DNA of 64,000 nt from Gemmatimonadota bacterium (GCA_036336795.1 JAYZFL010000011.1:6209-70208); one strand, 5' to 3'. Positions 533 through 56,535 are shown, counted from the stretch's first letter. Translations and numbers: made by a program. The notes: generated from the letters alone by a model not told the origin.

Positions 533-1687
533 TCAAGCTAACCGACGTAAGACGGTAGCCACGCGCTCGATCTCCTCATCCGTCTGGTAGAAGTGAGGCG
601 CCAGTCGTAAGTAGCCCGCTTGAGTGGTCGCGACGATTCTTTCGGCCTGCAATTGGTCCACGAGGCGAGCCGCGTTCGTACCTATTCGTACCGACAAGAT
701 TCCTGAGCGATGGGCCGGCGCGAACGCTAGCGGACGGATACGGTCCGTGTCGAGCGCATTGAGCAATTGGTCTTGAAGCCGAAAAACCTCCGTGGCGATC
801 GCCTCGATCCCGTATCGCAGGAAAACTTCCTCGAGCACGGTTTCGATACTCGCAAGATGTTCCCAGGGTAGGGTGCTGTACTCGAAACGACGAGTGTCCT
901 CACGTGGGTCCAATGAGTGGTTCAAGTAGTCAAGGTGGTGATTCATGGCCGCGTCGCCGGCCATCGTGATTCGAAGCTTCCGTCTAAACTCCGGTGCCAG
1001 GTAAAGTAGGCCCGCTCCCCGCGAAGCGAGGAGCCACTTCCACGCCGATGACACCACCGCAGAGATACCGTATTCCTTCGGATGGATGGGTAGGACGCCA
1101 AAACTTTGAGCGGCATCGATCACAAGGTCGATCCCCCGCTCTAGACAGAAGTGACCGAGCTGCTTTAGGTCCGCAGCGTAGCCGCTTGCGAACTGTACAT
1201 GGCTAAGGGCCACCACGCGCGTGCGCTCCGTCGTCTTGGCCTCCAGCTCTTCCATGGACCAGCCACGCGGGGCGCCGATTGGCAGGTTGCCGATCGGGTC
1301 CACGTCGGAAAGGAGAATCAGTTCGACCCCTCGCTCGGATTGAAGCGCCCAGGGGTAGTGATTGGACGGAAATTCATGAACGTAGCTTATCACCTGGTCA
1401 CCGGGCTCGAAGGGGTAGCCGTTCGCGATCAATCCGATGCCCTCAGCCGTATTGCTCACGTATGCGATGTCACCCACGTCGACCTTGAAAAAGGTAGCTA
1501 CTCGGTCACGGAAGGTCGTGAGCGCACGTCCGTACCGATCACGCAGCAATACACCTTCCTCGGAGTGAGTTTCGACAAAGTCACACGCCGCCCGCGCTGC
1601 TGGGCCATACATCGGTCCGATCGCAGAATGAGCCAGGTACACATAGTTCTTCCGGATGGGGAAAAGCGTTTCACTTTTGTCAAACAC
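533..1687 (-). CDS. class V aminotransferase-fold PLP enzyme (cysteine desulfurase / isopenicillin-N epimerase-like); specificity unknown
   Basis: 384-aa ORF. It has the N-terminal YLAHSAIGP, DAAQSFG and SSAWKWLLASRGAGLLY (PLP-lysine region) pattern typical of class V aminotransferases. Confidence 0.7.
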   Translation of the reverse strand: MFDKSETLFPIRKNYVYLAHSAIGPMYGPAARAACDFVETHSEEGVLLRDRYGRALTTFRDRVATFFKVDVGDIAYVSNTAEGIGLIANGYPFEPGDQVISYVHEFPSNHYPWALQSERGVELILLSDVDPIGNLPIGAPRGWSMEELEAKTTERTRVVALSHVQFASGYAADLKQLGHFCLERGIDLVIDAAQSFGVLPIHPKEYGISAVVSSAWKWLLASRGAGLLYLAPEFRRKLRITMAGDAAMNHHLDYLNHSLDPREDTRRFEYSTLPWEHLASIETVLEEVFLRYGIEAIATEVFRLQDQLLNALDTDRIRPLAFAPAHRSGILSVRIGTNAARLVDQLQAERIVATTQAGYLRLAPHFYQTDEEIERVATVLRRLA

Positions 1688-4813: not shown

Positions 4814-6496
4814 ATGAACGAAGAGCGGTTTCGCGAACTACTCAGAAAACGTGGAGTTCTCTATCCGGCGAACCACCCCCTTAGGGACGACATCAGTGGA
4901 ATTGACCGTAGAGAGTTCGTGAGAATCACCGGAGCCGCTGGGGCCGCGCTCGCGATGGGTGGAGGAAGCCTCGGTTGTCTGCCCGGGGATTCTCCTATGC
5001 GCGGGAGAGGTCCTGCTCCGGATCCGGTAGAGCGGGAACTTGCGCTACTAGCTCTCGACGAAGCCCGATCGGCGGGAGCGAGTTATGCGGATGTGCGTGT
5101 TTCGCGGCATTGGAACGAATCAGTCAGCACTCGTGAGCAACAGATCACCAACGTCAGCAAGAGTGATTCCTACGGCATTGGTGTGCGTGCGCTCGTAGGT
5201 GGATCATGGGGATTCTCCGCGACACGGGACCTGAATCGAGACGCCGTTGCCTCAGTGGCTCGCGAAGCGACCGCGATCGCTTCCGCGAACGACCGAGTTG
5301 CACCGAGCACAACGGTACTCGCTCCGGTTGAGCCTATCCCGGATGGACGTTGGGTGACCCCTCACACGATTGATCCATTCGATGTCTCGGTTGAGGAAAA
5401 GTCTGATCTTCTGTTCCGTGCCAATGAAGCGGCCCTGAGAGTAGCTGGCGTGCAGTTTGTATCTTCAAGCATCGGTTCAGTGAAGGAAAGTCGTTTAGTA
5501 GCTACGAGCGAGGGATCGGTCATCCAGCAGACTTCCATTCGCATGAATCCGAGCATGAACATCACGGCGGTGTCGTCGGATCGCTCGGATTTTCAGAGTC
5601 GGGGTGCGGTCGCGGAACCAGCGGGTCGAGGTTGGGAATATGTGGCGGGGCTGGACTTTCCGGGTAACGCTCCGCACTGGGCAGAAGAAGCCGTAATGAA
5701 GTTGAGTGCGGCTCCGGTCGACGCAGGCACGTGGGATTTGATCCTTCACCCGTCTAACCTCTGGCTCACCATCCACGAGTCAATCGCGCATCCGACGGAG
5801 CTCGACCGGACTCTAGGATACGAAGCTAACTATGCTGGTACGTCGTTCATCTTTCCTCCGGAGGAGGCGCTCAATAACCTCCGGCTTGGCCAGGATTTCA
5901 TGACGTTCATGGGTAATCGGACCGAGGAGGGCGGATGTGCCACGATCGGTTGGGACGACGAGGGTGTGCCGGCCACGTCTTGGCCCATCATCAAGGATGG
6001 TATTTTCGTCAACTACCAAACCACCCGAGAGCAAGCCGCTTGGATCGCCGACGAGACGGGTGTGACGAACAGCCTCGGCTGCTCGTACGGAATGAACTGG
6101 GCGAATATCCCGTTTCAGAGAATGCCCAACGTCAGTCTGATGCCCGGAGACCAAGACCTGAGTGAAGATGATGTTATCGCCGCGACCGACCGTGCCATCA
6201 TGGTAGAAGGGCGAGGTTCCTACTCCATTGACCAGCAGCGATACAATTTCCAGTTCGCGGGACAGGTGTTCTGGGAGATCCGAGACGGAAAGAAATACCG
6301 GATGCTGCGGGATGTCGCATACCAAGGGCGAACACCGGAATTCTGGAACTCTATGTCCGTGATCGGTGGGCCGAGCACCTATTACCTAGGTGCCACGTTC
6401 GGCGATGCCAAGGGTCAGCCCGGTCAGTCGAACGCCGTTTCTCATGGGTGTCCCATGGCGCTTTTTCGCGACGTCAAAATCCTTAACACCGCCTGA
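4814..6496 (+). CDS. TldD-family metallopeptidase with twin-arginine (Tat) signal
   Basis: ATG 4814 has GGAG 5 nt upstream. Tat motif DRREFVRITGAAGAALAMGG. HESIAHPTELD matches the TldD HExxxH-type zinc site. Length is about 560 aa. Confidence 0.85.
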   Translation: MNEERFRELLRKRGVLYPANHPLRDDISGIDRREFVRITGAAGAALAMGGGSLGCLPGDSPMRGRGPAPDPVERELALLALDEARSAGASYADVRVSRHWNESVSTREQQITNVSKSDSYGIGVRALVGGSWGFSATRDLNRDAVASVAREATAIASANDRVAPSTTVLAPVEPIPDGRWVTPHTIDPFDVSVEEKSDLLFRANEAALRVAGVQFVSSSIGSVKESRLVATSEGSVIQQTSIRMNPSMNITAVSSDRSDFQSRGAVAEPAGRGWEYVAGLDFPGNAPHWAEEAVMKLSAAPVDAGTWDLILHPSNLWLTIHESIAHPTELDRTLGYEANYAGTSFIFPPEEALNNLRLGQDFMTFMGNRTEEGGCATIGWDDEGVPATSWPIIKDGIFVNYQTTREQAAWIADETGVTNSLGCSYGMNWANIPFQRMPNVSLMPGDQDLSEDDVIAATDRAIMVEGRGSYSIDQQRYNFQFAGQVFWEIRDGKKYRMLRDVAYQGRTPEFWNSMSVIGGPSTYYLGATFGDAKGQPGQSNAVSHGCPMALFRDVKILNTA

Positions 6497-11988: not shown

Positions 11989-12894
11989 TTAGGCAAGGGC
12001 CGCTCGCACCGTCCCACAGTGGATCTCTACGGTGTCGGATGGATTGATAGCGTACCCTCCGGCGAGAGTGACGGCCACGCCCGAGCCGCAGTCGGCCGCA
12101 GATTTCATGACGAAGTCGTCACGCTGCCTTAGGCCGCAGAGGGACAAACCCAGGCCTCCGAGTTGGTCGATCTCGTAAGGGTCAGCTCCAGCTAAATAGA
12201 TGACGAGCTGAGGTTGATGGTCCTCCAGAATGCGCGGAAGGTGCTCCGTTAGGATGGCCAAGTACTCGTCATCTCCTACACCGTTCTCAAGGCCGACATC
12301 GAGATCTCCCGGTGGCTTTATGCTGGGATAGTTCCGTTGCTGATGCATGGAAAACGTAAAGATCCGCGGTTCATCGGCAAAAATGGCGGCCGTGCCGTTT
12401 CCGTGGTGAACGTCGAGATCGACGATGGTGATCCTCTCGACGGTTTTTTCGGTCAACAGGCTCGCAGCTGCTATCGCTACGTCGTTGAGAAGGCAGAAGC
12501 CTTCTCCGTGATCTGCGAAGGCGTGATGGAAGCCGCCACCCAGATGCACAGCTCGTCCGTGATTGAGGGCGAGTCTCCCTGCTAGGGTTGTGCCGGCCGC
12601 ACAGAAAAGGGAGGCCTCACGAACTGCATCGGAAAATGGAATCTCCAAGATGCCCTCCTCCTGCGGTGTGAATCTGCCCTTGAGCACCTTCTGCCAATAT
12701 GAGGGCGTATGGACCCGAAGTACGTCTTGGGAAGAAGCTGACCTGGGAGAGTGCAGGGTCAGGTTGCTCAATAAGCCCTCGGCCTCCAAGCGCTCTTTGA
12801 CGAGCCGGTATTTTTCTACCTGGAAGACGTGCTGGCCGATGTCGACCTCGTAGAAGGGGCACCAGACGACGGGAACCCCCCCGACTTCACTCAT
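11989..12894 (-). CDS. histone deacetylase-family amidohydrolase (AcuC / acetylpolyamine amidohydrolase-like)
   Basis: GGGFHHAFADHGEGFCLLNDVAIAA and DLDVHHGNGT are the classical HDAC zinc and active-site motifs. Confidence 0.85.
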   Translation of the reverse strand: MSEVGGVPVVWCPFYEVDIGQHVFQVEKYRLVKERLEAEGLLSNLTLHSPRSASSQDVLRVHTPSYWQKVLKGRFTPQEEGILEIPFSDAVREASLFCAAGTTLAGRLALNHGRAVHLGGGFHHAFADHGEGFCLLNDVAIAAASLLTEKTVERITIVDLDVHHGNGTAAIFADEPRIFTFSMHQQRNYPSIKPPGDLDVGLENGVGDDEYLAILTEHLPRILEDHQPQLVIYLAGADPYEIDQLGGLGLSLCGLRQRDDFVMKSAADCGSGVAVTLAGGYAINPSDTVEIHCGTVRAALA

Positions 12895-13088
12895 GGTTCA
12901 GTTTTCCTTTAACGGTTGTCGTAGTTCCGGTAACGCGTACCCCGAAACGGTTAGGCATGTCCATAAGTACCTTGAAGAGTCAGGCGTAAGTTCCAACTTG
13001 TGGATCTTGTGCACTTTGATCGCAGCTTGCTCGATACCCAGCCCATGCCTACCATCGCCCATCACCTATCACCACTGGGGAGTCAGAT

Positions 13089-13553
13089 ATGGGAGACGTC
13101 GTCTACACGTCGAAGATTGGGGTTGAGCGGATTAGGGGCCCTCTGCGGAAAGCTCGCCTTCCTGCGACGGAAGAGCCGGTGATGTTCGGTGTGCACGGTG
13201 CTATTGCTGAGCACTATGGTGTGGAAGGAGGAACGGAGACCACCACCACACTAGATTATGTGATCGCGGCTACGGGTGGCTGACTGACTGGGACCCTCGG
13301 TGGCGCGCTGGAGGCGCGTGGGATTTCAGCAAGTGAGGGTCGTCTCACAGCGGCCGTGACAGGTGAAGTGGAAAAAGAAGACGAAGTCCTAGTGATTCGG
13401 CGAATCCATGTCCGTTATCGGTTACTTGGTGCTCCTCAGAACGAGGTCACTGCTCGTCGAGTACACGACATACATCGCTCACGCTGTCCCGTCTACCGGT
13501 CTATCTCTGGATGTATCGATGTCTCGACGGAGCTTGAATTTGAGACAGATTAG
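13089..13553 (+). CDS. OsmC/Ohr-family protein read through an in-frame UGA (13281-13283): candidate selenoprotein; alternatively a nonsense pseudogene
   Basis: Track ORFs 13089..13283 and 13356..13553 are in the same frame, with no other stop between them. The joined 154-codon product has the OsmC pattern, IAATGG-[UGA]-LTGTLGGALEARGI ... RSRCPVYRS. The UGA aligns with the first conserved Cys of the OsmC paralogue at 44079-44513. GGGGAG lies 6 nt upstream of ATG 13089. Confidence 0.6.
13292..13341 (+). promoter_or_regulatory. candidate bacterial SECIS-like hairpin downstream of the in-frame UGA
   Basis: The GC stem 13304-13308/13314-13318 carries the loop UGGAG, which lies 26-30 nt 3' of the UGA. 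A possible outer 7-bp helix pairs 13292-13298 with 13335-13341. Folded by eye only. Confidence 0.35.
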
Positions 13554-14917
13554 GCCACCCAGACCGTCTTGACGTTTACGAACTCCCGGATACCCATCGG
13601 AGAGAGTTCTCGTCCGTAGCCACTCTGTTTTATTCCGCCGAAAGGAAGCCTCGGGTCGGACCGGACGAAAGAGTTCACGAAACACGCTCCGGCCTCCAGC
13701 CACTCTGACGCGAGTCTTTCACCCTTCTCCACGTCGCTCGTGTAGATGGATGCTCCGAGACCGTACACGGTTGTGTTCGCGACCCGGAGAGCCTCGTCCT
13801 CGTCGGCGACCGGGATAATTGACACCACGGGCCCGAAGAGCTCTTCGTCGTATGCTGGCATTCCTGGTCCGACGTCCGTGAGTACCGTAGGCGGATAGAA
13901 GAAACCCGGGCCTTCGGGTAGTTCCCCACCGAGCACTACTCGGGCACCGTGAGCTACACTGATTGTTACCTGACGGTGGAGGTTTTCACGGAGATCGAAT
14001 CGGGCGATAGGTCCCAAGGTTGTAGCGGGTTCGGTGGGATCTCCTGGAACCACTTCGGACATCCGGTTAACCACACGGGCCTGGAAGGCGTCCCGAACGC
14101 TTTGTACAACGATGAGTCGCTTCGCCGCAATGCAGCTCTGGCCAGAGTTATTGAGCCGACTTTCGACACATGCGTCAGCGGCGACATCGAGATCAGCGTC
14201 AGCCAGGATCACACTGGGATCACTCCCCCCGAGCTCGAGCACGCTCTTCTTGATCACCGAACCGGCCGCTGCGGCTACCGCTCGTCCGGCCGTTGTGGAG
14301 CCGGTAAGCGTCACCGCTTTAATTCGATCGTCTCGAATGATGGTATCCACCTCCGGCACGTCAACCACCAAGGTACGAAAGAGATGCTCCGGATATCCTG
14401 CTGTCCGGAATAGTTCCTCAAGGGCGAGGCCACATCCGGTGACATTGGGAGCGTGCTTTAGGATCGCCGCATTTCCTGCCGTCAGGGTAGGAGCGGCGAA
14501 GCGGACGACTTGCCAAAAGGGAAAATTCCAGGGCATGATCGCCAGAATGATCCCGAGCGGCTGGAAGGTTACCAAGCTCCGTGAAGCATCACTTTCTACG
14601 ATTTGGTCGGCCAATGACTCCGGAGCGCTTTCCGAATAGTAATCACACACCCAGGCACACTTGTGGATCTCCTGTTCGGCTGCGTTCAGGGGCTTGCCCA
14701 TCTCCTCGGCCATGAGTTCGGCGTATTCACTCGCTCGGGTTCGCAAATGATCTGCTAGCCTCCGCAGAGGTTCGATGCGCTCCGATAGATCGAATCTCCT
14801 CCACGATTGAAAGGTGTCCTCGGTGGCCCTGAGTACTTCCTCGATCTGGGCAGAGGACATTTCCGAGTAGTTCGCGATTCTTTTACCGGTGGAGGGATTA
14901 ACCGTCGTAATAGCCAT
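13550..14917 (-). CDS. NAD(P)+-dependent aldehyde dehydrogenase, succinate-semialdehyde dehydrogenase-like
   Basis: 455 aa. The ALDH motifs ELGGSDP (Glu region) and NSGQSCIAAKR (catalytic Cys) are present. The N-terminus TVNPSTGKRIANY resembles Sad/GabD-type enzymes. Confidence 0.85.
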   Translation of the reverse strand: MAITTVNPSTGKRIANYSEMSSAQIEEVLRATEDTFQSWRRFDLSERIEPLRRLADHLRTRASEYAELMAEEMGKPLNAAEQEIHKCAWVCDYYSESAPESLADQIVESDASRSLVTFQPLGIILAIMPWNFPFWQVVRFAAPTLTAGNAAILKHAPNVTGCGLALEELFRTAGYPEHLFRTLVVDVPEVDTIIRDDRIKAVTLTGSTTAGRAVAAAAGSVIKKSVLELGGSDPSVILADADLDVAADACVESRLNNSGQSCIAAKRLIVVQSVRDAFQARVVNRMSEVVPGDPTEPATTLGPIARFDLRENLHRQVTISVAHGARVVLGGELPEGPGFFYPPTVLTDVGPGMPAYDEELFGPVVSIIPVADEDEALRVANTTVYGLGASIYTSDVEKGERLASEWLEAGACFVNSFVRSDPRLPFGGIKQSGYGRELSPMGIREFVNVKTVWVA

Positions 14918-15117: not shown

Positions 15118-16938
15118 ATGCAGATCGGATATATTGACGGTGCGCGTCTACGCCGTGCGCTGACTGCCGCTTGCCAGTGGGCCCGGGAACAGCGAAGCGA
15201 GCTGAACCGGATCAACGTTTTCCCTGTGCCGGATGGGGATACGGGGACGAATCTGGCTCTTACCGTCCAGGCGATCACCGATCATCTCAAAGATAGTAGA
15301 GATCGATCCGTGGGTATCGTGGCGTCGGAGGCGGCACGAGCTGCGGTCTTGGGTGCCCGTGGGAACTGTGGAATGATGCTCTCTCAGTTCTTGCTCGGAT
15401 TTGCACGTAATCTGGAAGGGCGGGATCGGATCAACGCTCGTGATTTCGGCACGGCGCTAGGGGCCGGTGTGGAGAACCTGTACGGTTCTCTGGAAGACCC
15501 GGTGGAGGGGACCATTGTCACAGTCATGCGCGAGACGGCGGATGCCGTGTCACAGACGGAAACCAGGGACATCGCTACTTTGATCGAGTTCATGCTCGAG
15601 AGTGCTCGCCGTTCGTTGGATCGGACTCCAGATCTGCTTCCCGTTCTAAAGTCTGCCGGAGTAGTGGACGCAGGAGGAAAGGGATTTGTAAGCCTTCTGG
15701 AGGGTGTGTCGTTGTTTCTGAGAGGAGAGCCCTTGTCGCAGAATCCCAGAGCGGAGTCTCCGGTGGGAACACCCGTGTTGGGTGCGGTTGAGTATCCGGA
15801 CAGGGTGGAGCAGTACCGCTTTTGTACTGAGGCGCTCGTTCGCGGAGATAAGCTTCCAACACAAGATCGTGTGCGGGGTCATCTCAGGGAGCATGGTGAT
15901 TCAGTAATCGTTATCCGGTCCGAAGATGTGCTCAAGGTTCACATCCACACGGACGTTCCCGAGGACATTTTCAGTTACCTGGGGGCGCTCGGCACACTCG
16001 TCACTCACAAGGCTGAGGACATGAGGGTTCAGCATGAGGTGGCCGCACGCGCCTCTGGTACTCATCTGTCACTCGTTCGCCGCCCAGTCGGAATCTTGAC
16101 TGACAGTGGCTGTGATCTTTCCAAGGAGATTATACGGGCACACGGCATTGAAGTCGTACCGTTGATGCTGATGGACGGTGAGAAAGCCTACAGGGATGGC
16201 GTTGACGTCACACCAGAAGAGTTCCACGAGATGATGGCGTCCCAAGACACCCTACCCACTACCTCGCAGCCTTCGCCGGGCGCATTCTTGGAGGGGTACC
16301 AGCGGGCGGCGCAGGACTCTGAACAGGTAATTGCTGTCGTGCTCAGCTCCAGTCTTTCTGGGACCTTTGCCTCAGCGGAGTCCGCGGTCGCAGAGGCGCC
16401 AAACCTTCCTGTCCACCTCGCAGATTCTCTGGGTACATCGCTCCTTCACGGACTTTTGGTTTTGAAGGCCGCAGAGCTGGCGGAATTAGCCATGCCTCCT
16501 GCTGAGATCGTGAGCGAGTTGACACGGATCCGTAGTCGGTCCGGTATGCTTTTTACAGTCGATACCTTCGATCGGATCCTGGCGTCAGGACGGGTGGGAA
16601 AGGGTAAGGCATTCCTCGGAACACTCCTCAATCTCAAACCGATCTTGTGTCTGGACCGGCAAGGCACGGTACTCCCCCGAGGGAAGGCTATGGGTCGGAA
16701 GCGCGTCATAAGGGCGTTGTTGGATGCGATGCAGGAAGATATGGGCAGTGTGCCCCAAACGGTGCGCTTCGGGATCGTTCACGTAGGGATCCCGGAGATC
16801 ATCCCGGAAGTGAGTGAGATGTTAGTGGAGCGCTATGGTGAAGTCGAAATCCTTACGGCTCCGGCTACTCCGGTTATCTCCACGCACTTGGGGATTGGCG
16901 CGTGGGGATTGGCCTACATGGTGGAAGATTCACCGTAA
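15118..16938 (+). CDS. fusion protein: DhaL/Dak2 (FakA N-terminal and central domains) + DegV (FakB-like fatty-acid-binding) domain
   Basis: The N-terminus has VFPVPDGDTGTNL (Dak2/DhaL nucleotide-binding motif), and YRFCTEALV...LKVHIHTDVPE resembles the YloV/FakA central domain. The C-terminal 280 aa has the DegV hallmarks ILTDSGCDL, TSQPSPGAF and LSSSLSGTFASA. Confidence 0.8.
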   Translation: MQIGYIDGARLRRALTAACQWAREQRSELNRINVFPVPDGDTGTNLALTVQAITDHLKDSRDRSVGIVASEAARAAVLGARGNCGMMLSQFLLGFARNLEGRDRINARDFGTALGAGVENLYGSLEDPVEGTIVTVMRETADAVSQTETRDIATLIEFMLESARRSLDRTPDLLPVLKSAGVVDAGGKGFVSLLEGVSLFLRGEPLSQNPRAESPVGTPVLGAVEYPDRVEQYRFCTEALVRGDKLPTQDRVRGHLREHGDSVIVIRSEDVLKVHIHTDVPEDIFSYLGALGTLVTHKAEDMRVQHEVAARASGTHLSLVRRPVGILTDSGCDLSKEIIRAHGIEVVPLMLMDGEKAYRDGVDVTPEEFHEMMASQDTLPTTSQPSPGAFLEGYQRAAQDSEQVIAVVLSSSLSGTFASAESAVAEAPNLPVHLADSLGTSLLHGLLVLKAAELAELAMPPAEIVSELTRIRSRSGMLFTVDTFDRILASGRVGKGKAFLGTLLNLKPILCLDRQGTVLPRGKAMGRKRVIRALLDAMQEDMGSVPQTVRFGIVHVGIPEIIPEVSEMLVERYGEVEILTAPATPVISTHLGIGAWGLAYMVEDSP

Positions 16939-20873: not shown

Positions 20874-21875
20874 ATGTCTAAGCGGCAACGAGAAGAAACG
20901 GTCATCATTGGATCGGGACCCGCCGCATGGACAGCGGCCATCTATGCTGCCCGAGCCAATCTCCAGCCACTTGTCGTGGAGGGCGCAGGAAGCCGTACGA
21001 TGATTCCGGGTGGACAACTCATGTTTACCACGGATGTAGAAAATTATCCAGGTTTTCCTGCGGGCATCACAGGGCAGGAGATGATGGCAGCGTTCAAGGC
21101 GCAGGCACTCCGATTTGATACGAGAGTGCTCACCGAGGATGTCGTCGAGGTGGACTTGTCCCTGCGGCCACTCTTGATGAGAACAAGTAGTGGTACAGAG
21201 ATCGAAAGTGACACGGTCATCATTGCAACGGGGGCGAATGCGAACTGGATAGGGCTCCCCAACGAACAGCGCTTAGCCCAGAGTGGTGGTGGGGTATCCG
21301 CGTGTGCCGTCTGTGACGGAGCCTTGCCTCACTTTCGGGACCAGGTGGTGGCGGTCGTAGGGGGTGGGGACAGCGCCATGGAGGATGCTTTATACATGGC
21401 TAAGTTTGCAGGTGAAGTTGTCGTGATCCACCGTCGGGACGAGTTACGGGCGTCGAAGATCATGCAGGAGCGTGCTTTCAAAGAGGAGAAGGTCCGCTTC
21501 GAGTGGAATCAGCTCGTGACCGACGTCCGAGGCGACGACGTGATTACAGGAGTGATGCTTCGTGACACGATCTCCGGGGAGGAGAGGGAATTGGAAGTTG
21601 GGGGACTTTTCGTCGCGATCGGGCACTCCCCCAACGTCGATTTTCTGAAGGGACAGGTCGCCCTGAAGCCGAATGGTTTCATCGAAACGCCCACTGCGTG
21701 GCGCACGGCCACCTCCGTTCCCGGCGTGTTCGCTGCAGGAGACGTCATAGACGACCACTATAAGCAGGCGATAACGGCCGCTGGCACTGGCTGCATGGCT
21801 GCGCTCGAAGCCGAGCGGTGGATCGCTCACGGTGGTGTGGAGAGCCTAGTCTTAGTACCTGGAGTGGAGGGCTAG
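20874..21875 (+). CDS. trxB: thioredoxin-disulfide reductase
   Basis: IIGSGPAAWTAAIYAAR FAD motif, redox-active CAVCDG and VVGGGDSAMEDA NADPH motif. 333 aa. Confidence 0.9.
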   Translation: MSKRQREETVIIGSGPAAWTAAIYAARANLQPLVVEGAGSRTMIPGGQLMFTTDVENYPGFPAGITGQEMMAAFKAQALRFDTRVLTEDVVEVDLSLRPLLMRTSSGTEIESDTVIIATGANANWIGLPNEQRLAQSGGGVSACAVCDGALPHFRDQVVAVVGGGDSAMEDALYMAKFAGEVVVIHRRDELRASKIMQERAFKEEKVRFEWNQLVTDVRGDDVITGVMLRDTISGEERELEVGGLFVAIGHSPNVDFLKGQVALKPNGFIETPTAWRTATSVPGVFAAGDVIDDHYKQAITAAGTGCMAALEAERWIAHGGVESLVLVPGVEG

Positions 21876-43633: not shown

Positions 43634-44113
43634 ATGGCCTGGTGGACAAAGCTTTTTGGCGGATCGGCAGGTGTTAGACGTGTCGCCTACTACGACGAAG
43701 GCCTCGAGCTGTTGGGAGAGAGCAAGTTCCATGAGGCGCTCACGTCGTTTCGCTTGGCGCTCAAAGAGTCCCCCGGCGACACAGTGGTTCTTCAACAGAT
43801 CGCGATCGCGTACACGCGCATCGGCATGACCGAAGAGGCTGTAAAAACATATCGGCACGTTCTTCAAAAGACTCCCGAAGCAGCTGGTGCACACTATGGA
43901 TTGGCGTTCCTGCTCGTCCGAAGTGGCCAAGAACCGGCCGCAATCCCCCACCTCCGGGCCTTCTTAGAAAACGCACCTGTAGGACAGGAGGCCGGTGACC
44001 ACGTATCACACGCGCGTGATATGTTGGCGAAGCTCACTGGAGAGGGAGGTGGTGAAGGAGGTGCTGCCCCGGTATCCGATGGACCTCGACATACACAGGA
44101 TGACCTCTTTTAA
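43634..44113 (+). CDS. tetratricopeptide-repeat protein
   Basis: Repeated A/L/Y helical-pair pattern (YYDEGLELLGESKFHEALTSFRLAL, AIAYTRIGMTEEAVKTYRHVL, HYGLAFLLVRSGQEPAAIPHLRAFL). Confidence 0.6.
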   Translation: MAWWTKLFGGSAGVRRVAYYDEGLELLGESKFHEALTSFRLALKESPGDTVVLQQIAIAYTRIGMTEEAVKTYRHVLQKTPEAAGAHYGLAFLLVRSGQEPAAIPHLRAFLENAPVGQEAGDHVSHARDMLAKLTGEGGGEGGAAPVSDGPRHTQDDLF

Positions 44114-44513
44114 GGACGCGACCCTGAAGTGGACCGGAGAAGGTAAGACCTTCATTGGCCATGCTGGCTCTGGACCTGAGGTGACCATCGACGGTGACGG
44201 AAAGACCGGGGCGTCATCGACAGATTCCGTGCTCATGGGGCTCATGGGTTGCATGAGTATCGATGTCCTCATGGTTCTCCAGAAGTCACGTGTGAAGGTG
44301 ACCTCGCTCATCGTAAAAGCGGAAGCCGAGCGGGCGCCCAAGCCCCCCCAGTATTTTACTCGGGTTCGCCTCACATTCGTCCTGGACGGTCCCGACTCGG
44401 ATGCGCGCCCCAAGATCGATCGGGCAATTCAACTCTCTAGAGAGAAGTATTGTAGTGTCCTACACTCTCTTCGAGGAGATCTCGAACTGGAAACCTCGGT
44501 GGAGGGTGTGTGA
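44079..44513 (+). CDS. OsmC-family protein (Cys form)
   Basis: Has LMGLMGCMSIDVL (first conserved Cys) and REKYCSVLHSL (second conserved Cys). Start uncertain (ATG 44079 or 44100). Overlaps the end of the TPR gene. Confidence 0.75.
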   Translation: MDLDIHRMTSFKDATLKWTGEGKTFIGHAGSGPEVTIDGDGKTGASSTDSVLMGLMGCMSIDVLMVLQKSRVKVTSLIVKAEAERAPKPPQYFTRVRLTFVLDGPDSDARPKIDRAIQLSREKYCSVLHSLRGDLELETSVEGV

Positions 44514-46901: not shown

Positions 46902-47390
46902 TTGCTTAATGCCATAAAATCTTTTTTTGGAGCCACCATGGTTCCAGTGTCCCAGGAGGATACGATCGACGATGCGGAAGTACGCCTCGCCGCGTGCGCG
47001 CTACTCATCGAGATTGCCCATGCGGACGAAGATTTTACGGAGGACGAGAGGCAGCACCTCGCGTCTGCTATTCGCAGGCAATACGGTTTGGACGGAGAGC
47101 AGGCCGAAGAGCTGATCAGCTTGGCGGAAGAAGCCCAATCGACTGCTGTAGACCTCTGGCAGTTTACTAAACTCATCAAATCAACTTACTCAATCGGCCA
47201 GAAGATGGTTCTGTTAGAGGTCATGTGGGGCCTTGTATATTCGGACGGAGAGCTGTCGAGTCACGAGGAATCACTAATGCGACGGGTTTGTGGTCTTTTG
47301 GACCTCGCACCCGGGTTCCTGGCAGACGTGAGAAAGAGAGTGCAGGGCACGGGCGACGAGGGAGAGGGGAGGGATGTTGGGAGAGATTAG
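46902..47390 (+). CDS. TerB-family (tellurite-resistance-like) protein
   Basis: LAACALLIEIAHADEDFTEDERQHL and LLEVMWGLVYSDGELSSHEESLMRRV are the paired TerB helices. The TTG start is uncertain; ATG 46938 is an alternative. Confidence 0.7.
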   Translation: MLNAIKSFFGATMVPVSQEDTIDDAEVRLAACALLIEIAHADEDFTEDERQHLASAIRRQYGLDGEQAEELISLAEEAQSTAVDLWQFTKLIKSTYSIGQKMVLLEVMWGLVYSDGELSSHEESLMRRVCGLLDLAPGFLADVRKRVQGTGDEGEGRDVGRD

Positions 47391-54786: not shown

Positions 54787-56535
54787 ATGATCAACCATCG
54801 ACACTTCTTAGCATTCTTCACTCTGTGCTCTCTCTGGTTGGGCACCACGGTACTGAGTAGTACGGGACCGGTTTCCACGCTCGGTGCGTCTGCCACTGTC
54901 GGTCCCGATACCATCCAGCCAGTACGTGCACCGAATGGGATGGTCGTATCCGCGAGCACGCGAGCTAGCCAAGTCGGCTCGGACGTTCTGGCGGCTGGAG
55001 GGAACGCTGTGGACGCCGCAATCGCGACCGGACTTGCTTTGGCCGTGACTCATCCTTCTGCCGGGAACATCGGTGGGGGTGGTTTCATGGTGATTCGCTT
55101 TCCCGACGGAACTAGTACGGCGGTCGACTTTCGGGAAAAGGCACCACTGGCTTCGCATCCGGAGATGTGGCTAGACGATTCAGGTGAATATTCTCGTACA
55201 ACCCACCACAACAGCTACCTCGCGGTAGGCGTGCCTGGTACGGTCGCCGGATTTTGGAAAGCCCACCAGCTCTACGGAGATCAGGATTGGGAGCGGCTCG
55301 TGAAACCCGCGGTCACTTTGGCCCGAGATGGCTTCAAGATTACGGAGCGGCTCGCGGGTGGACTAGAGCGACTCATTGAGGGACGCGGATCGAGTTTTCC
55401 GGGCACGGTCCAGTCGTTCTCGAAAGATGGATATCCCTATAGTTCCGGTGAGATGCTTGTGCAGACAGACCTCGGTCGGACGCTCGAGCGGATCGCGGCC
55501 GATGGGCGAGATGGTTTTTATGCCGGCGAAACCGCTCGGCTCTTGGTCGCGGAGATGGAGCGAGGCGGAGGGATTATCACACTGGAGGACCTAGTCCGGT
55601 ATCAGGCGCGCGAGCGCACTCCGATCCATGGCACATATAACGGATACGACATCATCTCCATGGCGCCTCCTTCCAGTGGGGGAATCGCCATAGTCCAGAT
55701 GTTCAACATCCTTGAGGGATATGATTTGGCTGCGATGGGTCACAATTCAGCCGACTACATCCACCACCTAGCTGAAGTAATGCGGCGAGCGTTTCGGGAT
55801 CGGGCTCATCTCGTGGCGGATGTAGATTTCGTGGATGTCCCGCTCCACCACCTTACGAGCAAGGTATATGCGGAGAGCTTGCGGGCCGGTATCGCCTCGC
55901 GCGCCGCAGGTGTTTCGGCGCCCTCCGATATCACAGAACCCTATGAGAGTCCTGAAACCACGCACTATTCTGTGGTGGACAGTGACGGAATGGCGGTCTC
56001 GGTCACTTACACGCTAGAGAGCGGATACGGGTCGGCAGTCACGGTCGAAGGTGGCGGATTCCTGCTCAATAATGAGATGGGGGATTTCAACGCAGGTCCC
56101 GGGTGGACGAATGATCAGGGACTTATCGGGACCGAGCCAAACCTGGCGCGTCCCGAGCAGCGGATGTTGTCGAGTATGAGCCCAAGTATTGTCGCGAAGG
56201 ACGGTGAGCTAGTTGCCGTTGTGGGCAGCCCAGGAGGTCGGACCATCATTAACACCGTTCTTCAAGTGATCTTAAACGTGATTGAGTTCGACATGAACAT
56301 CCAGGAGGCGGTGAACGCTGCGCGGCTCCATCATCAATGGCTGCCTGATGTCATCCGTATTGAGCAGGATGGAGTTACGACGCCCACTGTGACTAAGCTC
56401 GAGCAGTTTGGGCATAGGGTGTCGGTAGGGGGAGGACAGGGACGTGCCAACTCGATCATGATCGACCCCGTGACAGGTGACCGATTGGGTGCAGCGGACC
56501 CGCGGAATGAAGATGCGGGGGCATCGGGAAACTAA
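54787..56535 (+). CDS. ggt: gamma-glutamyltranspeptidase, secreted
   Basis: Has a signal peptide, the autoprocessing and nucleophile site ETTHYSVVD, and the GSPGGRTIINTV and LHHQWLPD motifs. Confidence 0.9.
   Translation: MINHRHFLAFFTLCSLWLGTTVLSSTGPVSTLGASATVGPDTIQPVRAPNGMVVSASTRASQVGSDVLAAGGNAVDAAIATGLALAVTHPSAGNIGGGGFMVIRFPDGTSTAVDFREKAPLASHPEMWLDDSGEYSRTTHHNSYLAVGVPGTVAGFWKAHQLYGDQDWERLVKPAVTLARDGFKITERLAGGLERLIEGRGSSFPGTVQSFSKDGYPYSSGEMLVQTDLGRTLERIAADGRDGFYAGETARLLVAEMERGGGIITLEDLVRYQARERTPIHGTYNGYDIISMAPPSSGGIAIVQMFNILEGYDLAAMGHNSADYIHHLAEVMRRAFRDRAHLVADVDFVDVPLHHLTSKVYAESLRAGIASRAAGVSAPSDITEPYESPETTHYSVVDSDGMAVSVTYTLESGYGSAVTVEGGGFLLNNEMGDFNAGPGWTNDQGLIGTEPNLARPEQRMLSSMSPSIVAKDGELVAVVGSPGGRTIINTVLQVILNVIEFDMNIQEAVNAARLHHQWLPDVIRIEQDGVTTPTVTKLEQFGHRVSVGGGQGRANSIMIDPVTGDRLGAADPRNEDAGASGN

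What the first reader, a model, noticed from the sequence alone, without database searches (positions are those of the whole stretch)
13089..13553. OsmC-family gene with one in-frame UGA exactly at the catalytic-cysteine position: candidate selenocysteine recoding missed by ORF calling
Seen in the sequence: the track splits this locus into 13089..13283 and 13356..13553. Both pieces are in the same frame, and the only stop between them is TGA at 13281-13283. Reading through it gives one 154-codon OsmC-like protein of normal family length. The junction reads ...TLDYVIAATGG-[UGA]-LTGTLGGALEARGI.... It lines up with ...STDSVLMGLMG-C-MSIDVLMVLQKSRV... of the Cys-containing OsmC paralogue at 44079-44513, so the UGA replaces the first conserved (peroxidatic) Cys. 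The second conserved Cys is retained (RSRCPVYRS versus EKYCSVLHS). The UGA is followed by C, and the gene has a good SD (GGGGAG, 6 nt) before its ATG. Established knowledge: bacterial selenoproteins almost always carry Sec where homologues have a redox-active Cys, and OsmC/Ohr proteins are thiol peroxidases. As far as I recall, OsmC-like selenoproteins have been predicted in marine metagenome surveys, so the family may not be new. Even so, standard gene callers would mis-annotate this instance as two fragments or a pseudogene. The alternative explanation is a recent nonsense mutation, since TGC/TGT to TGA is a single change.
Basis: partly seen in the sequence, partly recalled or inferred. Interest (0 to 1): 0.8.

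Follow-up and report, generated by a model that had tools for sequence, protein, structure and literature searches.

The report
Selenocysteine-encoding OsmC-family peroxidase gene
What gene callers split into two fragments is one intact antioxidant-enzyme gene whose internal UGA "stop" almost certainly encodes selenocysteine at the catalytic position; this type of selenoprotein has been known since 2005, but this widespread branch of it is routinely mis-annotated.

Summary
Window 13089-13553 (+) is one 154-codon OsmC-family reading frame with a single in-frame TGA at 13281-13283. That TGA sits on the family's first conserved (peroxidatic) Cys.

It is not a nonsense mutation. In the 80 best orthologous loci, from at least 10 bacterial phyla, the codon is TGA in 80/80. 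Both halves of the protein are equally conserved, and codons on each side show purifying selection.

Nineteen nt after the UGA lies a 7-bp hairpin, GCGCGCU-GGA-GGCGCGU (13303-13319). It meets every criterion of the published bacterial SECIS model. Its synonymous sites are frozen across phyla but relaxed in Cys-form homologues that keep the same peptide.

UGA is an ordinary stop elsewhere in the window. SelA/B/D and tRNA-Sec are not in the 64 kb, so Sec machinery in this genome is untested.

"OsmC-like" selenoproteins were described in 2005 (Sargasso Sea). The published members are a different subfamily (23% identity over 40 aa, motif UxxT, different SECIS), with Sec at the homologous position. 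So this is a new member, in a distinct clade, of a known kind.

Public databases hold this clade as C-terminal fragments or as code-4 "Trp" mistranslations.

The parts
13077..13082 (+). Shine-Dalgarno-like GGGGAG, 6 nt upstream of the ATG
   Evidence: Read directly from the sequence. No sigma-70-like promoter was found in 12700-13800.
13089..13553 (+). Complete selenoprotein CDS: 154 codons (Sec at codon 65) plus TAG stop. It belongs to the OsmC/Ohr superfamily.
   Evidence: Translation. Pfam OsmC across residues 50-148. Orthologues are 155-160 aa with the same N terminus, M..VVY.S.
13281..13283 (+). In-frame UGA, inferred to encode selenocysteine (U65); followed by C
   Evidence: TGA in 80/80 orthologous loci. 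It aligns with the first conserved Cys of solved OsmC-family structures 1ukk, 2onf and 1ml8, of the window's paralogue and of Cys-form homologues.
13303..13319 (+). bSECIS-type hairpin GCGCGCU-GGA-GGCGCGU (7 bp; apical loop GGA at 13310-13312). It is embedded in codons +7..+12 (G-A-L-E-A-R).
   Evidence: RNAalifold consensus over 81 sequences, 99.5% of cells paired, with only pair-preserving changes. Folds at -11.3 kcal/mol alone. Synonymous sites are frozen. Unique in the window, 0.04 expected by chance. Codon choice is relaxed in Cys forms with the same peptide.
13485..13487 (+). Codon for Cys133 (TGT) in the CPVYRS motif, the second (resolving-type) Cys of the OsmC/Ohr active site
   Evidence: Invariant column in the 47-sequence family alignment. 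Aligns with EGCPVSR of T. thermophilus OsmC 1ukk and with the paralogue's second Cys.
44079..44513 (+). Cys-containing OsmC-family paralogue (YhfA-like). It is context only and not part of the selenoprotein gene.
   Evidence: Pfam OsmC E = 7.8e-18; NCBIfam NF008009 at 84 bits, below its cut-off of 138. Profile alignment to the Sec family.

Best explanation
Window 13089-13553 encodes one 154-residue OsmC/Ohr-superfamily protein. Codon 65 (UGA, 13281-13283) is inferred to be decoded as selenocysteine. The proposed mechanism is that SelB carrying Sec-tRNA(Sec) is recruited by the in-frame hairpin GCGCGCU-GGA-GGCGCGU. The hairpin starts 19 nt after the UGA, and its apical loop starts 26 nt after it.

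Sec occupies the position of the peroxidatic Cys on the long active-site helix. Cys133 (CPVYRS) occupies the resolving-Cys position. By analogy with OsmC/Ohr, the protein would reduce hydroperoxides through a selenenic-acid and selenenylsulfide cycle and would be recycled by a thiol reductant.

**Shown here:** the single frame, family and fold membership, positional equivalence of UGA with Cys, pan-phylum conservation of the UGA and of both protein halves, and the conserved hairpin with its nucleotide-level constraint.

**Inferred:** that the inserted residue is Sec, that SelB reads the hairpin, and the peroxidase chemistry and its reductant.
For: 1. **One frame and one domain.** The frame is continuous and the OsmC domain spans the UGA.
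2. **Conserved UGA.** The codon is TGA in 80/80 best loci out of 574 confirmed in GTDB species genomes. Phyla include Gemmatimonadota, Chloroflexota, Dormibacterota, Acidobacteriota, Desulfobacterota, Nitrospirota, Actinomycetota, NC10/Rokubacteria, KSB1 and Clostridia. The upstream half is conserved in 79/80, and the downstream frame stays open for 87-95 codons.
3. **Both halves under selection.** Identity to the window is 57.6% for the N half and 59.5% for the C half. Codon-position divergence shows purifying selection on both sides.
4. **Synteny.** The gene lies in a block (amidohydrolase-ThyX-hyp-HDAC-gene-ALDH) shared with Longimicrobiales and other Gemmatimonadota loci that also carry TGA.
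5. **The hairpin meets all four bSECIS criteria** quoted in PMC13188914: 7-bp stem; loop U-GGA-G, which fits N1-G-[G|U]-N-N2; 26 nt from the UGA; -11.3 kcal/mol.
6. **Frozen synonymous sites in the hairpin codons.** GGC 76/79, GCG 81/81, CUG 81/81, GCG 81/81, CGY 81/81. Flanking four-fold sites carry 1.3-1.9 bits of entropy. Third-position divergence is 0.15 inside the hairpin and 0.58 outside.
7. **Control.** Three of four Cys-form homologues with the same GGALEA peptide use CTC at the loop codon and show GGT, GCT or CGG variants. A distant Cys form has neither the peptide nor the hairpin.
8. **UGA is a normal stop here.** It ends 16 of the 41 long ORFs in the window.
9. **Active-site position.** The Sec column aligns with the first Cys, and C133 with the second Cys, of solved OsmC structures. 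An AF2 model of a Cys-form orthologue (pLDDT 96.3) matches OsmC/Ohr structures at TM 0.6-0.8.
10. **Precedent.** OsmC-like selenoproteins have Sec at the homologous position (PMC1088965).
Against: - No selA, selB, selD or tRNA-Sec was found in the 64-kb window or in 556 kb of held sequence. The genome's ability to decode Sec is assumed, not shown.
- The hairpin stem never shows a double compensatory change. It is nearly invariant, so support comes from frozen synonymous sites and pair-preserving single changes rather than classical covariation.
- A lower stem seen in the window's own fold is not conserved: 62% paired, no better than shuffles.
- The 76-nt region as a whole does not fold better than shuffled sequence (z = 0.13).
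- Peroxidase activity and the roles of catalytic Arg/Glu equivalents were not tested.
- There is no experimental evidence of selenium incorporation.
Confidence: 0.88

Rival explanations
1. Recent nonsense mutation or pseudogene: a TGC/TGT to TGA change killed an ordinary Cys-type OsmC gene, and the downstream part is no longer translated.
For: TGA is one step from TGC/TGT. Gene callers split the locus. No Sec machinery is visible in the window.
Against: - TGA is present at the same column in 80/80 orthologues from at least 10 phyla.
- The downstream half is as conserved as the upstream half and shows the codon-position signature of purifying selection.
- All family-invariant residues, including C133, are present.
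- The syntenic Gemmatimonadota orthologues carry the same TGA.
Confidence: 0.01
2. Split gene: the UGA is a true stop, and the two halves are made as separate polypeptides (64 aa plus a re-initiated C-terminal piece) that assemble non-covalently.
For: Databases hold many C-terminal 'proteins' of 84-98 aa that start just after the UGA.
Against: - The codon after the UGA is a CTN Leu codon in 80/81 sequences, which is not a start codon.
- In the window the first in-frame start is GTG at 13356, 25 codons downstream. Starting there would delete the most conserved segment.
- The break would fall inside one continuous active-site helix, residues 56-78 of the model, exactly at the catalytic residue.
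- The database 'starts' are gene-caller choices of TTG/ATG/GTG near the UGA.
Confidence: 0.02
3. The UGA is recoded but not to Sec. One route is SECIS-dependent delivery of Cys by a SelB/tRNA variant; selC*-type tRNA-Cys(UCA) has been proposed in some soil and sediment bacteria (my recollection of Mukai et al. 2017 NAR, not re-read here). The other is near-cognate read-through inserting Trp, Cys or Arg.
For: - The inserted residue was not observed.
- The lineages carrying this gene overlap those in which unusual tRNA-Sec-like species were reported (from memory).
- UGA-C is a leaky termination context (established knowledge for E. coli).
Against: - The hairpin fits the SelB-type bSECIS model in all four criteria.
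- The site is a redox-active Cys position, the standard location for Sec (PMC1088965).
- Simple read-through would not require a hairpin conserved at nucleotide level.
Confidence: 0.06
4. Genome-wide reassignment of UGA (genetic code 4 or 25), so that UGA is simply Trp or Gly here.
For: 55 of the 120 best database homologues show W at this column.
Against: - Those W residues are gene-calling artefacts. The DNA has TGA, and the same translation also reads through the gene's true TGA stop, 'FIN*CC*'.
- UGA terminates 16 of the 41 long ORFs in the window.
- The carriers are ordinary code-11 phyla.
Confidence: 0.005

Closest known systems
OsmC-like selenoprotein family of Zhang, Fomenko & Gladyshev 2005 (Sargasso Sea; also GOS 2008; listed in the 2022 and 2026 reviews as PF02566/COG1765, motif UxxT)
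   Same: - Same Pfam superfamily.
- Sec replaces the first conserved, peroxidatic-position Cys; BLASTP aligns Sec on Sec.
- A second Cys is retained.
- An in-frame hairpin SECIS follows the UGA at a similar distance, with a 7-bp upper stem and a 3-nt G-containing loop.
   Different: - All three published sequences are of the 'GIGF-U-LLTQ...GCFAE' type.
- Identity to the window protein is only 23% over 40 residues, E = 0.02.
- The window's motif is U-L-T-G-T, not UxxT.
- The second-Cys motif is CPVYRS, not GCFAE.
- The SECIS sequence is unrelated (GGCGCGCUGGAGGCGCG against GAAGCGGUACGCUUC).
- The published genes are low-GC marine sequences. This clade sits in Gemmatimonadota, Chloroflexota, Acidobacteriota and other phyla.
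OsmC and Ohr thiol peroxidases (E. coli OsmC 1nye/1qwi, T. thermophilus OsmC 1ukk, Ohr 1usp/1zb9/6eb4) and YhfA-like proteins (1ml8)
   Same: - Same fold, TM 0.6-0.8 for a Cys-form orthologue model.
- Both active-site Cys positions are conserved, the first as Sec.
- The 'CP(V)' context of the second Cys is as in OsmC.
   Different: - Sequence identity is about 11-18%.
- Profile-to-PDB E-values are only 0.002-0.5.
- The TIGR03562 OsmC subfamily model scores 18.8 bits against a cut-off of 85.8.
- The N-terminal region (aa 1-50) carries its own conserved motifs, VVY.S...FGVHG.IAEHY.
- Sec replaces Cys.
Other bacterial Sec-containing peroxide-detoxifying proteins (Sec-peroxiredoxin, Prx-like, AhpD-like, GPx; PMC1088965 Table 3)
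   Same: Sec sits at a redox-active Cys position of an antioxidant enzyme and is decoded through an in-frame bSECIS.
   Different: The folds are unrelated: thioredoxin-fold or AhpD-fold against the OsmC fold.

Membership tests
Bacterial selenoprotein gene (Sec-UGA + bSECIS) | In-frame UGA aligned with Cys in homologues (Sec/Cys pair) | tested here: met
   TGT/TGC appear in Cys-form homologues at the same column. The column holds Cys in solved OsmC structures and in the window's paralogue.
Bacterial selenoprotein gene (Sec-UGA + bSECIS) | UGA-containing orthologues in other organisms, with protein conservation on both sides of the UGA | tested here: met
   80/80 loci carry TGA. N half 57.6% and C half 59.5% identity to the window, with a purifying codon-position pattern on both sides.
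Bacterial selenoprotein gene (Sec-UGA + bSECIS) | bSECIS model: 3-9 nt apical loop, 4-16 bp upper stem, G in the first two loop positions, 16-37 nt from the UGA, MFE <= -7.5 kcal/mol (PMC13188914, Fig. 2 legend) | tested here: met
   7-bp stem; loop GGA (or U-GGA-G = N1 G G N N2); 26 nt between the UGA and the loop; -11.3 kcal/mol. Conserved in 81/81 sequences.
Bacterial selenoprotein gene (Sec-UGA + bSECIS) | selA, selB, selC (tRNA-Sec) and selD present in the same genome | not testable with these tools
   None in the 64-kb window (ARAGORN; Pfam on 51 ORFs; tblastn with E. coli SelA/B/D). The rest of the genome is not available, and the source contig was not found by exact look-up.
Bacterial selenoprotein gene (Sec-UGA + bSECIS) | Selenium shown in the protein (75Se labelling or mass spectrometry) | not testable with these tools
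   Requires an experiment.
OsmC/Ohr superfamily (Pfam PF02566) | Domain match above the curated threshold | tested here: met
   46.8 bits against 27.5, residues 50-148.
OsmC/Ohr superfamily (Pfam PF02566) | OsmC fold | tested here: met
   AF2 model of the 56%-identical Cys-form orthologue P0015, pLDDT 96.3. Foldseek top hits are 2onf, 1ukk, 1lql, 1nye and Ohr structures at prob 1.00. The window protein itself could not be submitted.
OsmC/Ohr superfamily (Pfam PF02566) | Two conserved active-site Cys (peroxidatic and resolving) | tested here: met
   The first is Sec/UGA. The second is C133, which is invariant.
OsmC/Ohr superfamily (Pfam PF02566) | Hydroperoxide reductase activity and a catalytic Arg/Glu network | not tested
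   No coordinates or assay were available. Candidate conserved residues (R20, E41, R105, R137) were not mapped.
Published OsmC-like selenoprotein subfamily (Sargasso/GOS type) | Redox motif UxxT | tested here: not met
   The window has U-L-T-G-T, with T at +2 and +4 and G at +3. The published motif is U-L-L-T.
Published OsmC-like selenoprotein subfamily (Sargasso/GOS type) | Sequence similarity to the published members | tested here: not met
   23% identity over 40 aa, E = 0.02, with no other alignable segment.
Published OsmC-like selenoprotein subfamily (Sargasso/GOS type) | Sec at the first conserved Cys of the OsmC domain | tested here: met
   The one alignable segment puts Sec on Sec.
OsmC subfamily proper (NCBIfam TIGR03562) / YhfA (NF008009) | Score above the curated cut-off | tested here: not met
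   TIGR03562 scores 18.8 bits against 85.8. There is no YhfA hit.

The most novel reading that the evidence does not exclude
This gene may represent a second clade of OsmC-superfamily selenoproteins that curated lists do not include. The clade is found in at least 574 species-level genomes across at least 10 phyla, and its SECIS is essentially invariant at nucleotide level between phyla.

Some close relatives carry TTA, TCA, GGA or TGT at the Sec column while keeping the SECIS intact. On the most novel reading, these are not dead or Cys enzymes but cases of sense-codon recoding to Sec by variant tRNA-Sec species.
Probability: 0.07. Interest if true: 0.8.

Novelty: new member of a known kind. 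Interest (0 to 1): 0.45.

Why it matters
**Annotation.** The locus should be annotated as one selenoprotein, not as two fragments or a pseudogene.

**Scale of the annotation problem.** Among the 120 best database homologues, about 40 are C-terminal fragments labelled "OsmC family protein", "OsmC family peroxiredoxin" or "hypothetical protein". Another 55 are full-length only because TGA was read as Trp. No NCBIfam model captures the clade. A dedicated model with the Sec position flagged would correct hundreds of annotations. It would also add a marker of Sec use in Gemmatimonadota, Chloroflexota, Dormibacterota, Acidobacteriota and other poorly studied soil and sediment phyla.

**Dual coding.** The peptide GGALEAR is held constant largely because its codons form the SECIS. 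In distant Cys forms both the peptide and the hairpin change.

**Limits.** This does not open a new kind of biology. Sec replacing the peroxidatic Cys in OsmC-like proteins has been known since 2005.

Tried and rejected
I used the C-terminal alignment A2 instead.
- **Rfam at gathering threshold** found no family in the window.
- **ARAGORN** found no tRNA or tRNA-Sec in the window or in the flanks of L001-L060. It gave one odd tRNA-??? call in L009.
- **Exact-sequence look-up of the neighbouring ALDH**, meant to identify the source contig, found nothing on record.
- **Single-sequence PDB search** returned only spurious MurC hits. The family profile worked.
I used the natural Cys-form orthologue P0015.
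- **A lower SECIS stem** appears in the window's own fold but is not conserved: 62% paired, no better than shuffles. Rejected.
- **Whole-region folding energy** is not better than shuffled sequence (z = 0.13). Only the short hairpin stands out (z = -2.55).
- **Conserved gene neighbourhood across phyla:** none. The large clusters were alternative-frame ORFs over the gene itself. Only Gemmatimonadota share synteny.
- **tblastn with E. coli SelA/SelB/SelD** against the window and all held loci (556 kb) gave no hits.
- **Other split-by-TGA candidates in the window:** 62 mechanical candidates. I judged the long ones by position against the ORF list and the Pfam-annotated genes, not individually. 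They are adjacent genes in the same frame or ORFs opposite real genes.
- **Literature search** for "Sec-decoding" plus "Gemmatimonadetes" found no paper.
- **Promoter and terminator scan** of 12700-13800 found nothing.
- **P0023 (Cys form):** its DNA could not be fetched.

Full report
**1.
- Window 13089-13553 (+) translates as a single frame of 154 sense codons. It has one internal stop, TGA at 13281-13283, and a terminal TAG.
- The sequence shows GGGGAG at 13077-13082, 6 nt before the ATG, and a C immediately after the TGA.
- With Cys substituted at the stop, Pfam OsmC (PF02566) matches residues 50-148 at 46.8 bits against a cut-off of 27.5. One domain therefore runs across the UGA.
- The gene at 44079-44513 is a genuine Cys-containing OsmC-family paralogue of the YhfA type.
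- Pairwise BLAST cannot align the two proteins. A profile comparison does (E = 2.6e-4, 129 columns).

**2. It is not a private nonsense mutation.**
- A protein search returned 2,820 homologues.
- Among the best 120, about 40 are fragments of 84-98 aa that begin one to five codons after the UGA column. Another 55 are "full-length" proteins with Trp at that column.
- The DNA of one Trp form (P0012) has TGA there. The same translation also reads through the gene's real TGA stop ("FIN*CC*"). I infer that the other W forms are the same code-4 gene-calling artefact, since only P0012 was checked at DNA level.
- A scan of one genome per GTDB species, using the C-terminal half as query, confirmed 574 loci and kept the best 80.
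- In all 80 the codon aligned with 13281-13283 is TGA. In 79 the upstream frame encodes the conserved N-terminal half (...ATTLDYVVAAAAG-TGA-LTGTFGGALEAR...). In all 80 the downstream frame stays open for 87-95 codons.
- The carriers include Gemmatimonadota, Chloroflexota, Dormibacterota, Acidobacteriota, Desulfobacterota, Nitrospirota, Actinomycetota, NC10/Rokubacteria, KSB1 and Clostridia.
- Relative to the window, the N half is 57.6% identical on average and the C half 59.5%.
- Per-site divergence at codon positions 1/2/3 is 0.15/0.04/0.58 in the 12 codons before the UGA and 0.13/0.02/0.59 in the 6 codons after it. Both sides are translated and under purifying selection.
- The window shares the gene order amidohydrolase-ThyX-hypothetical-(HDAC-like)-this gene-ALDH with Longimicrobiales and other Gemmatimonadota loci at 55-76% amino-acid identity. 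The source is therefore a Gemmatimonadota-like genome and the TGA-bearing gene is a positional orthologue.

**3. A conserved SECIS-type hairpin follows the UGA.**
- RNAalifold on the window plus 80 loci predicts a single consensus element. It is a 7-bp hairpin at alignment columns 29-35/39-45, which is window 13303-13319 (GCGCGCU-GGA-GGCGCGU).
- 99.5% of pair cells are standard pairs. The only variation preserves pairing: G-C to G·U in 21 sequences and U·G to U-A in 25.
- The hairpin lies in codons +7..+12 (Gly-Ala-Leu-Glu-Ala-Arg), and its synonymous sites are frozen:
  - GGC 76/79
  - GCG 81/81
  - CUG 81/81
  - GAG 56 / GAA 25
  - GCG 81/81
  - CGC 60 / CGU 21, never CGG, CGA or AGR
- Neighbouring four-fold sites have 1.3-1.9 bits of entropy.
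- Third-position pairwise divergence is 0.15 in the hairpin against about 0.58 outside it.
- The published consensus bSECIS model requires a 3-9 nt apical loop, a 4-16 bp upper stem, a G in the first two loop positions (pattern N1 G [G|U] N N2), 16-37 nt between UGA and loop, and MFE <= -7.5 kcal/mol (PMC13188914).
- The window element has a 7-bp stem, the loop U-GGA-G, 26 nt of spacing and -11.3 kcal/mol. All four criteria are met.
- The 17-nt motif occurs once in the window, against 0.04 expected by chance.
- A lower stem predicted for the window alone is not conserved.

**4. The decisive control: the frozen codons go with the UGA, not with the peptide.**
- Cys-form homologues that keep the same GGALEA(R) peptide show relaxed codon choice:
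  - L092 (TGC): GGT GCG CTC GAA GCG CGG
  - L093 (TGC): GGC GCG CTC GAA GCG CGT
  - L094 (TGC): GGC GCT CTC GAG GCT CTC
- The loop codon is CTG in 81/81 TGA forms and in 1/4 of these Cys forms. My hypergeometric calculation gives p = 4/98,770, about 4e-5, ignoring phylogenetic non-independence.
- A distant Cys form (Streptosporangium, TGC) has neither the peptide nor the hairpin. The more distant Cys clade has variable residues where Sec forms have GGALEAR.
- One Cys form (Pyrinomonadaceae, TGT) still has the intact hairpin, consistent with a recent Sec-to-Cys conversion.
- The codon after the UGA is CTN in 80/81 sequences and never TTR, although other Leu positions in the gene do use TTR. This keeps a C after the UGA. 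I regard that as suggestive only.

**5. Alternative decodings.**
- UGA terminates 16 of the 41 longest ORFs in the window, so there is no global reassignment.
- A split two-polypeptide arrangement is unlikely. There is no start codon after the UGA in 80/81 sequences. The first in-frame start in the window is 25 codons downstream. The break would fall inside one continuous helix, residues 56-78 in the model.
- SECIS-dependent insertion of something other than Sec cannot be excluded computationally.

**6. What the protein is.**
- A family profile aligns the Sec column with the first Cys of solved OsmC-family structures: 1ukk "AAHAGC", 2onf and 1ml8. It aligns C133 with the second Cys, 1ukk "EGCPVSR".
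- C133 is invariant in a 47-sequence alignment.
- An AlphaFold model of the natural Cys-form orthologue P0015 (56% identical) has pLDDT 96.3. Its best PDB matches are OsmC, OsmC-like and Ohr structures at TM 0.6-0.8.
- The inferred chemistry is a Sec-based hydroperoxide reductase with a Sec65-Cys133 selenenylsulfide intermediate. This rests on analogy with OsmC/Ohr (established knowledge) and was not tested.
- The subfamily is remote from OsmC proper (TIGR03562 at 18.8 bits against 85.8). It has its own conserved N-terminal motifs.

**7. Sec machinery.**
- The 64-kb window has no tRNA gene and no Rfam hit.
- Pfam annotation of 51 ORFs found no SelA, SelB or SelD domain.
- tblastn with E. coli SelA, SelB and SelD found nothing in the window or in any held locus, 556 kb in total.
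- The source contig could not be identified by exact look-up.
- This defining feature therefore remains untested for this genome.

**8. Comparison with what is known.**
- "OsmC-like protein" is an established predicted selenoprotein family:
  - three Sargasso Sea sequences in 2005 (COG1765, motif UxxT; PMC1088965)
  - five in GOS (PMC2398784)
  - listed in the 2022 and 2026 reviews
- The supplement of the 2005 paper gives the sequences. All three are of the type "GIGF-U-LLTQ...GCFAE", with a SECIS around GAAGCGGUACGCUUC or GCGCGGUACGCGC.
- Against the window protein they share only 23% identity over 40 residues (E = 0.02), but that segment aligns Sec with Sec.
- So the window gene works like the known family: same superfamily, same catalytic position, same recoding mechanism. 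It fails the subfamily's motif and similarity tests.
- I found no paper in the searchable library that describes this clade specifically. No NCBIfam model captures it. Source names in the database are "OsmC family protein/peroxiredoxin" or "hypothetical protein" for fragments.
- I rate it a new member, in a distinct clade, of a known kind.

**9. Verdict.**
- Confidence that this is a translated, UGA-recoded gene with a functional SECIS is very high. Confidence that the residue is Sec is high but indirect (about 0.88 overall).
- Interest is moderate at 0.45. The biology is expected for the family. The practical value lies in correcting a systematic annotation error across many phyla, and in a clear example of an RNA element constraining a protein motif.

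Noticed in passing
L083/L084 (gene 5001-5474), L087 (1001-1468), L088 (1001-1498), L089 (436-894), L085 (3001-3474): Some homologues carry a sense codon one nucleotide from TGA at the Sec column while keeping the SECIS hairpin.
- TTA/Leu occurs in two different lineages. One is a 73% GC locus. The other is a 64% GC genome stretch where TTA is 1 of 2,637 neighbouring codons.
- TCA/Ser occurs in L088.
- GGA/Gly occurs in L089, with the loop mutated from CUG to CUA.
- TGT/Cys occurs in L085.

Possible readings are recent Sec loss, sequencing error, or sense-codon recoding to Sec.
   Followed up: partly
Protein database hits P0001-P0092 (e.g. P0012 = L081 579-1061): 55 of the 120 best homologues are 'full-length' only because the gene caller translated TGA as Trp (code 4). 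In P0012, the one checked at DNA level, the true TGA stop is also read through, giving a spurious C-terminal 'WCC'. About 40 more hits are C-terminal fragments. This is a systematic artefact in public protein sets for this family.
   Followed up: yes
window 15118-16938 (+): A single 606-aa ORF combines Dak2 and FakA-like middle domains with a complete DegV domain. These are the kinase (FakA) and fatty-acid-binding (FakB/DegV) components of fatty acid kinase, and as far as I recall they are usually separate proteins.
   Followed up: no
window 13550-13553: The selenoprotein gene (stop TAG 13551-13553) and the convergent aldehyde dehydrogenase gene (stop TAA on the minus strand, 13550-13552) overlap at their stop codons. 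No terminator-like structure lies between them.
   Followed up: no
L017 (Nitrospirota MAG), upstream of 2998: This is the only one of the 80 loci whose upstream frame does not encode the conserved N-terminal half, although TGA, hairpin and C half are intact. A frameshift or assembly error upstream is likely.
   Followed up: no
window 20874-21875 (+), 46902-47390 (+), 54787-56535 (+), 536-1687 (-): Other redox- or chalcogen-related genes lie in the window: a thioredoxin-reductase-like Pyr_redox_2 protein (333 aa), a TerB tellurite-resistance domain protein, a gamma-glutamyltranspeptidase and a class-V aminotransferase (the family of cysteine desulfurases and selenocysteine lyases). None is adjacent to the selenoprotein gene.
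   Followed up: no
L009 1999-2093 (+): ARAGORN reports a 95-nt 'tRNA-???' with a four-base anticodon (gccg), about 1 kb upstream of the selenoprotein gene in a Chloroflexi MAG. It could be a false positive or an unusual tRNA-like element.
   Followed up: no
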